From the NCBI RefSeq assembly GCF_056746865.1, contig NZ_CM163382.1: a stretch of 64,000 bases of DNA; one strand, 5' to 3'. Both the position numbers and the translations under genes were made by a program. This document shows positions 59,004-59,379 of this stretch, in pieces. The notes under the pieces are model-generated. The model saw nothing but the letters and a program-made list of their open reading frames with translations. It did not search any database and had not been told where the DNA came from. Position 1 is the first letter of the stretch, and the number at the start of each line of letters is the position of its first letter.

Positions 59004-59151
59004 TTGATGATGCCTCTGTGTGAAATGACGGTAAACGACGCACTTGTGCCGGCACATAATAGCAAGCACCATAATAGATCAGATTCGATTCTTGCTGTAA
59101 GTGATAATTATTCTCGTTTTCGGGTCCTTTCCGTCGATCCAACAGGTTACG

Positions 59152-59163
59152 GGGCGGCGACCT
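59152..59163 (+). other. cosN cohesive-end site (lambda-type 12-nt overhang GGGCGGCGACCT)
   Basis: ...CAGGTTACG|GGGCGGCGACCTCGCG.GTTTTCGCTATTTATGA matches the recalled lambda right-end/left-end junction. Confidence 0.7.
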
Positions 59164-59379
59164 CGCGCGTTTTCGCTATTTATGAGATTTTTTGAGGGGG
59201 TGGTTGTTGTTTAATTGTTTGGTATATCTACTTGATAAGTAAGGTGAAAATAAAATAAATACAACAACCTTACGATGTATTTTGATGTCATTAATGTGAA
59301 AAAATTCAATGATATCAAATGGTTTTGTAAAAACACATGGTTGTTGTATCGCTTTTTATCGATGACTTATGGAGAGGAG

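What the first reader, a model, noticed from the sequence alone, without database searches (positions are those of the whole stretch)
59141..59200. Lambda-identical cos site attached to a non-lambda early and lysis backbone
The 12-nt cohesive end GGGCGGCGACCT and flanking bases match the lambda sequence as I recall it, and Nu1-A-W-B-C are lambda-like, whereas the immunity, replication and lysis modules are of other lambdoid types (Rac-like replication, phage-21-like lysis). This illustrates module mosaicism and predicts lambda-compatible packaging.
Basis: partly seen in the sequence, partly recalled or inferred. Interest (0 to 1): 0.25.

Follow-up and report, generated by a model that had tools for sequence, protein, structure and literature searches.

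The report
Phage cos site with N15-type recognition
This is a real DNA-packaging (cos) site of an E. coli prophage whose cutting site is identical to phage lambda's, but whose recognition site and recognition protein are of the phage N15/"Monarch" type and whose head genes are phage 21-type, so it is an ordinary mosaic and lambda's enzyme is not expected to start packaging on it.

Summary
The 12-nt cohesive end GGGCGGCGACCT is present once, at 59152-59163. The cosN core (bp -2..14) is 16/16 identical to lambda and to phage 21.

The left flank with cosQ is phage 21 (31/31 bases, against 28/31 for lambda). The head genes are also phage 21 type: TerL 94%, W 97%, B 99.6% and C 98.7% aa identity, against 53-66% to lambda.

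Just right of cosN, the 21-like sequence is replaced up to about 60350. The first block is cosB plus the TerS DNA-binding domain, and it is N15/"Monarch" type:
- GGTTGTTGT occurs only three times in the 64-kb window, all here, oriented + - +, as R3, R2 and R1.
- An IHF-like site lies at bp 74-86, the position of I1 in lambda and 21.
- The TerS segment GISVQAFDKWGV, where the recognition helix aligns, is identical to N15's.

The second block (TerS C-terminal half plus TerL N-terminus) matches PhiR12 phages.

Feiss et al. [quoted passage not shown] Lambda compatibility therefore holds for cosN, cosQ and the sticky ends, not for initiation.

This cos region occurs in 219 of 5426 complete E. coli genomes. 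It is a new member of a known kind, of low interest.

The parts
59122..59128 (+). cosQ (GGGTCCT), the packaging-termination subsite
   Evidence: It lies in a stretch 31/31 identical to phage 21 at bp -31..-1, at the position annotated as cosQ in OL657228.1. It is conserved in relatives.
59150..59165 (.). cosN nicking site. The cohesive end GGGCGGCGACCT is 59152-59163. The inferred nicks fall before 59152 on the top strand and after 59163 on the bottom strand.
   Evidence: Unique exact match. Identity at bp -2..14 is 16/16 to lambda and 21, and 14/16 to N15. The nick positions are inferred from lambda and 21; they were not measured.
59199..59215 (+). cosB R3, a TerS binding site. The core GGTTGTTGTTTAAT is 59202-59215 (bp 51-64).
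   Evidence: The 14-nt core is identical to that of N15 R3 and sits 1 bp further from cosN. N15 R3 was defined by mutagenesis at bp 48-59/60 (PMC4669245). The site is conserved in diverse relatives.
59225..59237 (-). I1, a putative IHF site (TATCAAGTAGATA on the - strand, bp 74-86)
   Evidence: It has one mismatch to WATCAANNNNTTR, with a perfect WATCAA core. It occupies the same bp 74-86 as the I1 annotated in phage 21 and the corresponding lambda sequence. TTGATA is invariant in 15 diverse relatives. Binding was not tested.
59257..59271 (-). cosB R2, inverted relative to R3. The core ACAACAACC is 59261-59269 (bp 110-118).
   Evidence: It is an exact inverted copy of the R3 core, 50 nt away, at the position of R2 in phage 21 (107-122). 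It is conserved in relatives.
59336..59350 (+). cosB R1. The core GGTTGTTGTAT is 59339-59349 (bp 188-198).
   Evidence: It is the third and last exact GGTTGTTGT in the 64-kb window and is conserved in relatives. It lies about 38 bp further from cosN than R1 of lambda and 21.
59380..59886 (+). Small terminase subunit TerS (168 aa), a chimera. The N-terminal DNA-binding domain is N15-type. The C-terminal half is PhiR12-type.
   Evidence: Pfam Phage_Nu1 scores 75.8 bits against a cut-off of 30. Identity is 48.5% to N15 gp1, 38% to lambda Nu1 and 30% to 21 gp1. Residues 1-43 are 36/43 identical to N15, and GISVQAFDKWGV is identical. Residues 81-168 are 90% identical to PhiR12 TerS. A profile built without lambda or 21 finds the lambda TerS structure 6HN7_B at E = 2.4e-5.
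59858..61786 (+). Large terminase subunit TerL (642 aa). The N-terminal part (about 165 codons) is PhiR12-type. The rest is phage 21-type.
   Evidence: Pfam GpA_ATPase and GpA_nuclease. Identity is 94% to 21 gp2 and 66% to lambda A. DNA identity to 21 is 70-88% over 59950-60349 and about 100% from about 60350. Identity to PhiR12_2 is about 100% over 59850-60200.
61770..61970 (+). gpW-like head completion protein
   Evidence: 97% aa identity to phage 21 W and 53% to lambda W. Pfam gpW.
61967..63559 (+). Portal protein (gpB-like)
   Evidence: 99.6% aa identity to phage 21 B and 61% to lambda B. Pfam Phage_portal_2.
63549..64000 (+). Head protease/scaffold (gpC-like), cut off by the end of the window
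   Evidence: 98.7% aa identity to phage 21 C and 58% to lambda C over 150 aa.
57762..59149 (+). Phage 21-type right-end segment, holding a TonB-C-domain gene and small ORFs and leading into cosQ and cosN
   Evidence: 98.3-98.6% nt identity to phage 21. The TonB-like protein is 100% identical over the 108 aa of the phage 21 protein.

Best explanation
The finding is the cohesive-end site of a lambdoid prophage integrated next to potC in an E. coli chromosome. It has the full lambda-family architecture: cosQ, cosN and a tripartite cosB (R3, IHF site I1, inverted R2, R1), followed by the terminase genes.

Inferred mechanism, by homology with lambda, 21 and N15:
- Dimers of the winged-helix N-terminal domain of TerS (59380-59886) bind the GGTTGTTGT repeats R3 and R2.
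- IHF bending at I1 folds these two repeats towards each other. R1 is accessory.
- The TerS C-terminus holds TerL (59858-61786), whose nuclease makes staggered nicks in cosN. This gives the 12-nt 5' end GGGCGGCGACCT.
- cosQ together with cosN terminates packaging at the next cos.

The site is a three-way mosaic:
1. cosQ and cosN belong to a phage 21-type right end. cosN and the sticky end are identical in lambda and 21.
2. cosB and the TerS DNA-binding domain form an N15/Monarch-type specificity module.
3. The TerS C-terminal half and the TerL N-terminus form a TerS-TerL docking module shared with PhiR12 phages. Phage 21-type TerL and head genes follow.

Consequences:
- Sticky ends and termination signals are interchangeable with lambda and 21.
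- Initiation should be N15-specific. Lambda and 21 terminases should not initiate here.
- This phage's terminase may initiate on lambda DNA but not on 21 DNA.
For: Shown here:
- cosN is unique in the window and lambda-identical, and cosQ is present.
- All three GGTTGTTGT copies in 64 kb lie within 146 bp right of cosN, oriented + - + (0.53 expected by chance; 1 of 100 shuffles reaches 3).
- The R3 core GGTTGTTGTTTAAT equals the N15 R3 core and lies within 1 bp of the same distance from cosN.
- The IHF-like site sits at bp 74-86, as I1 does in 21 and lambda.
- R3, I1, R2 and R1 are conserved while spacers, left flank and even the cohesive-end sequence vary among 52 unique related loci.
- TerS belongs to the Phage_Nu1 family. 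Its N-terminal domain is 84% identical to N15's over residues 1-43, and the segment GISVQAFDKWGV is identical.
- Mosaic junctions were mapped by sliding identity against 21 and PhiR12_2.
- The DNA-binding domain stays at least 95% identical while the TerS C-terminus changes with the TerL type: 60% identity where TerL is lambda-type, 100% where it is 21/PhiR12-type.
- The cos region (59100-60000) is at least 80% covered in 219 of 5426 complete E. coli genomes. TerS has 406 relatives in IMG/VR.

From the literature (PMC4669245):
- The Monarch group is described as having an N15-type R3 and recognition helix with a tripartite cosB and an IHF site.
- Lambda and 21 do not package N15 DNA.
- cosN and cosQ show no such specificity.
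Against: - Nothing here was tested biochemically. Nicking positions, TerS binding to the repeats and IHF binding are inferred by homology and position.
- The specificity data come from N15, which has a single R3, and from a lambda-N15 hybrid terminase. They do not come from a tripartite Monarch-type cosB or from this TerS, whose middle and C-terminal parts differ from N15's.
- R1 lies about 38 bp further out than in lambda and 21.
- The IHF match has one mismatch, and such matches occur about 0.8 times per kb in this window.
- No isolated phage in the phage collection carries this complete TerS.
- The prophage carries an IS element between its Q-like gene and the late genes. Whether this copy ever packages DNA is unknown.
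- The Monarch sequence itself could not be retrieved. Membership rests on matching its published description.
Confidence: 0.8

Rival explanations
1. One reading: a lambda-type cos (cosN and cosB) with lambda-like Nu1-A-W-B-C, so the DNA would be packaged by lambda terminase.
For: The cohesive end and cosN core are identical to lambda, and cosQ is present. The terminase and head proteins are homologous to lambda's.
Against: cosB is unrelated to lambda's: 26/73 identity at bp 48-120, with R repeats of a different sequence. TerS is 38% identical to Nu1 and carries the N15-type recognition segment. The head genes are 53-66% identical to lambda against 94-99.6% to phage 21. Lambda does not package N15-specific DNA (PMC4669245).
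Confidence: 0.04
2. A plain phage 21-type cos with 21 packaging specificity, because both flanks and the head genes are phage 21-like.
For: 98-100% nt identity to phage 21 up to cosN and again from about 60350 onwards.
Against: The stretch from just right of cosN to about 60350, which holds cosB, all of TerS and the TerL N-terminus, is not 21-like. DNA identity is 24-56% over 59200-59949 and 66-88% over 59950-60349. TerS is 30% identical to 21 gp1, and the R repeats differ from 21's ATGTCGG-type repeats.
Confidence: 0.03
3. A fossil. The cos architecture is intact in sequence, but this prophage copy is defective and the site is never used.
For: An IS element lies between the Q-like gene and the late operon. 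Cryptic-prophage-like Qin and Rac segments are present. No isolated phage has this complete TerS.
Against: TerS, TerL, W and B are full-length ORFs. The near-identical prophage in strain Z0117EC0013 has a complete head and tail gene set. The R and I1 elements are conserved across diverged relatives while the spacers drift, which indicates selection on function in the lineage. This rival concerns the activity of this copy, not what the element is.
Confidence: 0.25
4. N15-like simple recognition. Only R3 matters, and the R2, R1 and IHF-like sequences are dispensable leftovers.
For: N15 works with a single R3 (PMC4669245). One relative, L089, lacks a recognisable R1.
Against: R2, R1 and the TTGATA core are conserved at fixed R3-R2 spacing (59 nt start to start) in nearly all relatives, including those with 70-79% TerS identity. 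In lambda, R2 and IHF contribute measurably to packaging (PMC4669245).
Confidence: 0.15

Closest known systems
'Monarch' group of N15-like prophages (Feiss et al. 2015, Virology 482:260; PLoS One 10:e0141934)
   Same: An N15-type R3 sequence and an N15-type TerS recognition segment, combined with a lambda-style tripartite cosB (R3, IHF site, inverted R2, R1), and no N15 rR2 inside the TerS gene.
   Different: The Monarch sequence could not be obtained for direct alignment. Here the module is joined to a phage 21-type cosQ flank and phage 21-type head genes through a PhiR12-type TerS C-terminus and TerL N-terminus. Other relatives join the same module to lambda-type TerL. Which of these arrangements is Monarch itself is unknown.
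Phage N15 cos and gp1 (TerS)
   Same: The R3 core GGTTGTTGTTTAAT is identical. The first 43 TerS residues are 84% identical, including GISVQAFDKWGV. TerS has the same length, 168 aa.
   Different: N15 has a simple cosB, with R3 only and a remote rR2 inside gene 1, and no IHF site. Its cohesive end differs at positions 9 and 12. Its TerS start is at bp 89, against bp 229 here. Overall TerS identity is only 48.5%.
Phage 21 cos and head genes (OL657228.1)
   Same: cosQ, cosN and the left flank are identical (31/31 and 16/16). I1 and R2 lie at the same coordinates. TerL from about codon 165, W, B and C are 94-99.6% identical.
   Different: The R repeats are unrelated in sequence, TerS is 30% identical, and the TerL N-terminus differs. 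The 21 packaging specificity is therefore not expected.
Phage lambda cos and Nu1/A
   Same: The same architecture and the same 12-nt end and cosN core. TerS belongs to the same Pfam family.
   Different: cosB is unrelated in sequence. TerS is 38% and TerL 66% identical. R1 lies about 38 bp further out.
Escherichia phages PhiR12_1 to PhiR12_5 (PV340549-PV340554)
   Same: The TerS C-terminal half is 90% identical, and the first 80 TerL residues are 100% identical in PhiR12_2.
   Different: They have a different TerS DNA-binding domain and different cosB repeats (CCGGACATG-type).

Membership tests
Lambda-like cos site (cosQ-cosN-cosB) | A 12-nt 5' cohesive-end sequence closely related to lambda's, with conserved CG dinucleotides flanking the nick positions | tested here: met
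   12/12 identity for the cohesive end and 16/16 for bp -2..14, to both lambda and 21.
Lambda-like cos site (cosQ-cosN-cosB) | The 7-bp cosQ lies about 24-30 bp left of cosN | tested here: met
   GGGTCCT at 59122-59128, identical in sequence and position to the cosQ annotated in phage 21.
Lambda-like cos site (cosQ-cosN-cosB) | [quoted passage not shown] | tested here: met
   Repeats at bp 51, 110 (inverted) and 188. The IHF-like site is at bp 74-86 and is conserved in relatives. IHF binding itself was not tested.
Lambda-like cos site (cosQ-cosN-cosB) | Terminase actually nicks the site to give cohesive ends | not testable with these tools
   This needs virion DNA end mapping or an in vitro cos-cleavage assay.
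Lambda packaging specificity (cosB-lambda / gpNu1) | R sequences of the lambda type (CGTTTCC core) and the gpNu1 recognition helix | tested here: not met
   Identity at bp 48-120 is 26/73 to lambda, the random level. The R core differs. TerS is 38% identical and its helix region is SVQAFDKW against SIRTIQNW.
Phage 21 packaging specificity | 21-type R sequences (ATGTCGG core) and the 21 gp1 recognition helix | tested here: not met
   Identity at bp 48-120 is 23/73 to phage 21. TerS is 30% identical.
N15/Monarch packaging-specificity group | R3 strongly matches R3 of N15 (bp 48-60; GTTGTT at bp 54-59 is the most critical part) | tested here: met
   GGTTGTTGTTTAAT is identical to N15, offset by +1 bp from cosN. 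The mutagenesis data are in PMC4669245.
N15/Monarch packaging-specificity group | The TerS recognition helix is identical to N15's | tested here: met
   GISVQAFDKWGV (residues 15-26) is identical in the window TerS and N15 gp1. The helix boundaries are taken from the alignment to lambda gpNu1, not from a structure of this protein.
N15/Monarch packaging-specificity group | Monarch subgroup: a tripartite cosB with an IHF site and no rR2 inside the TerS gene | tested here: met
   Three repeats and an I1-like site. There is no R-like inverted copy in the first half of TerS. The only other GTTGTTG-like match lies at 59876, bp 725.
N15/Monarch packaging-specificity group | Functional specificity: packaged by N15-specific terminase, not by lambda or 21 terminase | not testable with these tools
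   This needs helper-packaging assays of the kind used in PMC4669245.
gpNu1-family small terminase (Pfam PF07471) | Sequence membership, with an N-terminal winged-helix DNA-binding domain homologous to lambda gpNu1 | tested here: met
   Phage_Nu1 scores 75.8 bits against a cut-off of 30. A profile built without lambda or 21 hits the lambda TerS structure 6HN7_B at E = 2.4e-5 over residues 2-84. No structure was predicted.

The most novel reading that the evidence does not exclude
The cosB plus TerS DNA-binding-domain block is a self-contained packaging-specificity cassette that moves on its own among Escherichia lambdoid prophages. It is found joined to at least three TerS C-terminus/TerL lineages (lambda-type, 21-type, PhiR12-type) and next to at least six variant cohesive-end sequences. 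On this reading its spread reflects selection to diversify, or make asymmetric, packaging specificity. One example would be a phage 21-type head machine that can initiate on lambda-type DNA while escaping packaging, or interference, by co-resident lambda/21-type phages or satellites.
Probability: 0.15. Interest if true: 0.4.

Novelty: new member of a known kind. Interest (0 to 1): 0.15.

Why it matters
For annotation, an identical sticky end does not mean identical packaging specificity. Specificity is set by cosB and the TerS N-terminal domain, which here are N15/Monarch-type inside an otherwise phage 21-type packaging and head region. This bears on predicting which helper phages, cosmids or satellites can be packaged by which lambdoid prophages.

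The locus and its relatives amount to natural domain-swap experiments. One recognition module is joined to different TerL-docking modules, in parallel with the engineered lambda/21 and lambda/N15 hybrids. The principle and the cos type have already been published, so the gain is modest.

Tried and rejected
- I tried to fetch Feiss et al. 2015 (Virology, PMC4461450) to align the Monarch sequence directly. The paper is not held. A literature search for Monarch found only the PLoS One paper and an unrelated mention of a DNA kit.
- A single-sequence search of TerS against solved structures found nothing. A six-sequence profile was needed to reach lambda TerS.
- An exact IHF-consensus search found no site at cos. 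The I1 candidate has one mismatch, as the lambda and 21 I1 sites also depart from the consensus, so it is supported mainly by position and conservation.
- Per-column conservation over all 52 unique IMG/VR upstream regions gave little contrast, because most of them are near-identical. The 15-sequence diverse alignment is the informative one.
- My first estimate of the non-21 segment was 59199-59939, from BLAST. Sliding identity revised it to run from about 59165 to about 60350 and to consist of two sub-blocks.
- I considered and rejected a lambda-type cos, a 21-type cos and an N15-type simple cos (see the rival explanations).
- The GTDB species-representative scan for the exact tripartite pattern gave only three contigs. 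It therefore says little beyond pointing to an Escherichia-centred distribution.

Full report
**1. Observation**

The 12-mer GGGCGGCGACCT occurs once in the window, at 59152-59163 on the + strand. With up to one mismatch, 22 of 100 shuffles give a hit, so the 12-mer alone is weak evidence. The context settles it.

I built circularised cos junctions of lambda (NC_001416), phage 21 (OL657228.1, which carries curated cos annotation) and N15 (NC_001901), and aligned them anchored on cohesive-end base 1:
- The cohesive end is 12/12 identical to lambda and to 21, and 10/12 to N15.
- The cosN core, bp -2..14, is 16/16 identical to lambda and to 21.
- cosQ GGGTCCT lies at 59122-59128, the position annotated in phage 21.
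- The 31 bases left of the nick are 31/31 identical to phage 21 and 28/31 to lambda.
- From bp 48 rightwards identity falls to the random level (bp 48-120: 26/73 lambda, 23/73 phage 21).

So cosN is lambda-identical, and equally 21-identical. cosB is not lambda's.

**2. What lies around it**

The window is E. coli chromosome (fabD to potC) up to about 33.9 kb. From the integrase gene at 34033 to the end of the window it is a lambdoid prophage. Positions 39102-64000 are 99.7% identical to a prophage in strain Z0117EC0013, which goes on to a full set of head and tail genes.

Packaging and head genes:

| Gene | Coordinates | Size | aa identity to phage 21 | to lambda | to N15 |
|---|---|---|---|---|---|
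| TerS | 59380-59886 | 168 aa | 30% | 38% | 48.5% |
| TerL | 59858-61786 | 642 aa | 94% | 66% | 66% |
| W | 61770-61970 | 66 aa | 97% | 53% | 55% |
| B (portal) | 61967-63559 | 530 aa | 99.6% | 61% | 61% |
| C (partial) | 63549-64000 | 150 aa | 98.7% | 58% | 56% |

The head module is therefore phage 21-type, not lambda-type. TerS is the exception.

**3. Mosaic structure at cos**

Sliding identity against phage 21:

| Window interval | Identity to phage 21 |
|---|---|
| up to 59149 | 100% |
| 59150-59199 | 86% |
| 59200-59949 | 24-56% |
| 59950-60349 | 66-88% |
| from about 60350 | about 100% |

Against phage PhiR12_2 the profile differs. Identity is low up to about 59550, rises through the middle of TerS, and is about 100% over 59850-60200. 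TerS residues 81-168 are 90% identical to PhiR12 TerS, and the first 80 TerL residues are 100% identical.

The non-21 stretch therefore has two blocks:
- cosB plus the TerS N-terminal domain.
- The TerS C-terminal half plus the TerL N-terminus.

These blocks match the known functional domains of lambda-family TerS: DNA recognition at the N-terminus and TerL binding at the C-terminus (PMC4669245).

**4. cosB anatomy**

GGTTGTTGT occurs exactly three times in the 64-kb window: at 59202 (+), 59261 (-) and 59339 (+). All three fall within 146 bp to the right of cosN (0.53 expected; 1 of 100 shuffles reaches three).

- The R3 core GGTTGTTGTTTAAT (bp 51-64) is identical to the R3 core of N15 (bp 50-63). 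Mutagenesis placed N15 R3 at bp 48-59/60, with GTTGTT at bp 54-59 the most critical part (PMC4669245).
- R2 is inverted and lies at bp 110-118. Phage 21 R2 is annotated at bp 107-122.
- R1 lies at bp 188-198, about 38 bp further out than in lambda and 21.
- Between R3 and R2, at bp 74-86, the - strand reads TATCAAGTAGATA. This has one mismatch to the IHF consensus WATCAANNNNTTR and occupies the same coordinates as I1 in phage 21 (as annotated) and the corresponding lambda sequence.
- One-mismatch IHF matches occur 0.83 times per kb in the window but four times in the 301 bp around cos.

**5. TerS**

- TerS passes the Pfam Phage_Nu1 threshold (75.8 bits against 30).
- Its first 43 residues are 36/43 identical to N15 gp1. 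The segment GISVQAFDKWGV, which aligns with the recognition-helix region of lambda gpNu1, is identical.
- A profile of this TerS, N15 gp1 and four relatives, built without lambda or 21, finds the solved lambda TerS chain 6HN7_B at E = 2.4e-5 over residues 2-84.

**6. Relatives**

- The cos region (window 59100-60000) is covered at 80% or more in 219 of 5426 complete E. coli genomes and is 100% identical in 11 of them.
- No isolated phage in the phage collection has the whole TerS.
- IMG/VR holds 406 relatives of TerS.
- In 52 unique upstream regions, R3 and the cosN-to-R3 distance (50 nt) and the R3-to-R2 distance (59 nt start to start) are kept almost without exception. This includes groups with only 70-79% TerS identity.
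- In an alignment of 15 diverse members, R3, the TTGATA core of I1, R2 and R1 stand out as conserved blocks among variable spacers. The left flank varies, and so does the inferred cohesive-end sequence.
- The DNA-binding domain stays at least 95% identical, while the TerS C-terminus tracks the TerL type. C-terminal identity is 60% where TerL is 99.7% lambda A, and 100% where TerL is 21/PhiR12-type.
- A scan of one genome per species for the exact tripartite pattern found only E. albertii, an Escherichia sp. and one MAG contig.

**7. Comparison with what is known**

Feiss et al. (PLoS One 2015, PMC4669245) describe exactly this type. The "Monarch" prophage group has a strong match to R3 of N15 and the same TerS recognition helix. 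[quoted passage not shown] The same paper shows three further points:
- Lambda and 21 do not package N15-specific DNA.
- cosN and cosQ function are not specificity-limited.

I could not obtain the Monarch sequence itself. Membership therefore rests on meeting every feature in the description.

**8. Mechanism**

The steps below are inferred by homology. TerS dimers bind R3 and R2 across an IHF-induced bend at I1, and R1 is accessory. The TerS C-terminus positions TerL to nick cosN, giving GGGCGGCGACCT 5' overhangs. cosQ together with cosN terminates packaging.

Expected compatibility:
- The sticky ends anneal with lambda or 21 DNA.
- Termination at this cos by lambda or 21 terminase is plausible.
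- Initiation is N15-specific.

**9.

- Replication and recombination: the DnaC-like loader is 80% identical to Rac YdaV, and the exonuclease is 58% identical to RecE. The O-like initiator resembles YdaU only in its last 19 residues. The dicB-ydfABC and ydfU segments are Qin-like.
- Lysis: the holin is 77% identical to S21 and 80% to EssQ. The endolysin is 89% identical to RrrQ and only 31% to R21. Rz is 68% identical to both lambda and 21.
- 57762-59149 is 98.3-98.6% identical to phage 21.

**10. Verdict**

This is a real cos site, correctly located. The module assignment and the compatibility prediction need correcting. The element is a new member of a described kind (Monarch-type cos), set in a routine lambdoid mosaic. 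Interest is low.

Caveats:
- There is no biochemical evidence for this locus.
- An IS element lies between the Q-like gene and the late genes, so the activity of this copy is uncertain.
- The specificity data are extrapolated from N15.

Noticed in passing
L090 (PhiR12_2, PV340550.1) about 2063-2270: PhiR12 phages share this locus's TerS C-terminal half and TerL N-terminus. They have an unrelated TerS N-terminal domain and different cosB repeats (CCGGACATG-type). This looks like a further recognition module on the same TerL-docking module.
   Followed up: partly
L069-L088 (for example L071) and L046, L060, L065, L089, L019, L088: The same N15/Monarch-type cosB and DNA-binding domain is joined in other contigs to a lambda-type TerL (99.7% aa to lambda A) through a different TerS C-terminus. 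It also lies next to variant cohesive-end sequences, for example GGGTCAGAGGAC, GGGTCGGTGGAC, GGGCGGCAGGCG and GGGCGACGTCCG. These end sequences are inferred by alignment only.
   Followed up: partly
window 50251-51524: An IS element (transposase ORF 50619-51524; 96% nt identity to the Qin IS2E copy; annotated as IS3 family in the near-identical prophage) lies between the Q-like antiterminator gene (49171-49737) and the late genes. It may impair late transcription of this prophage copy.
   Followed up: no
window 33866-35389: The prophage integrase (34033-35151, - strand) and excisionase (35120-35389) lie directly beside potC (33072-33866). No potB gene is annotated between potC and the integrase, which suggests integration at or within potB. 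The attachment sites were not mapped.
   Followed up: no
window 59313-59332: A second IHF-like match (TATCAAATGGTTT, + strand, one mismatch) overlaps a degenerate R-like motif (GGTTTTGTA, 59321-59329). It lies in the extra spacer between R2 and R1 and is moderately conserved in relatives.
   Followed up: partly
window 38167-38355, 47142-47405, 52461-54437: The prophage carries dicB (a cell-division inhibitor, in a Qin-like segment), a hokD-like toxin region (97.7% nt to Qin) and a NanS-like SASA-family esterase (658 aa).
   Followed up: no
L094 (CAMFKP010000041.1) 8589-8734: A contig of a MAG labelled 'uncultured Aeromonadaceae' carries the exact Escherichia-type tripartite cosB pattern. It may be a mis-binned Escherichia prophage contig.
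   Followed up: no
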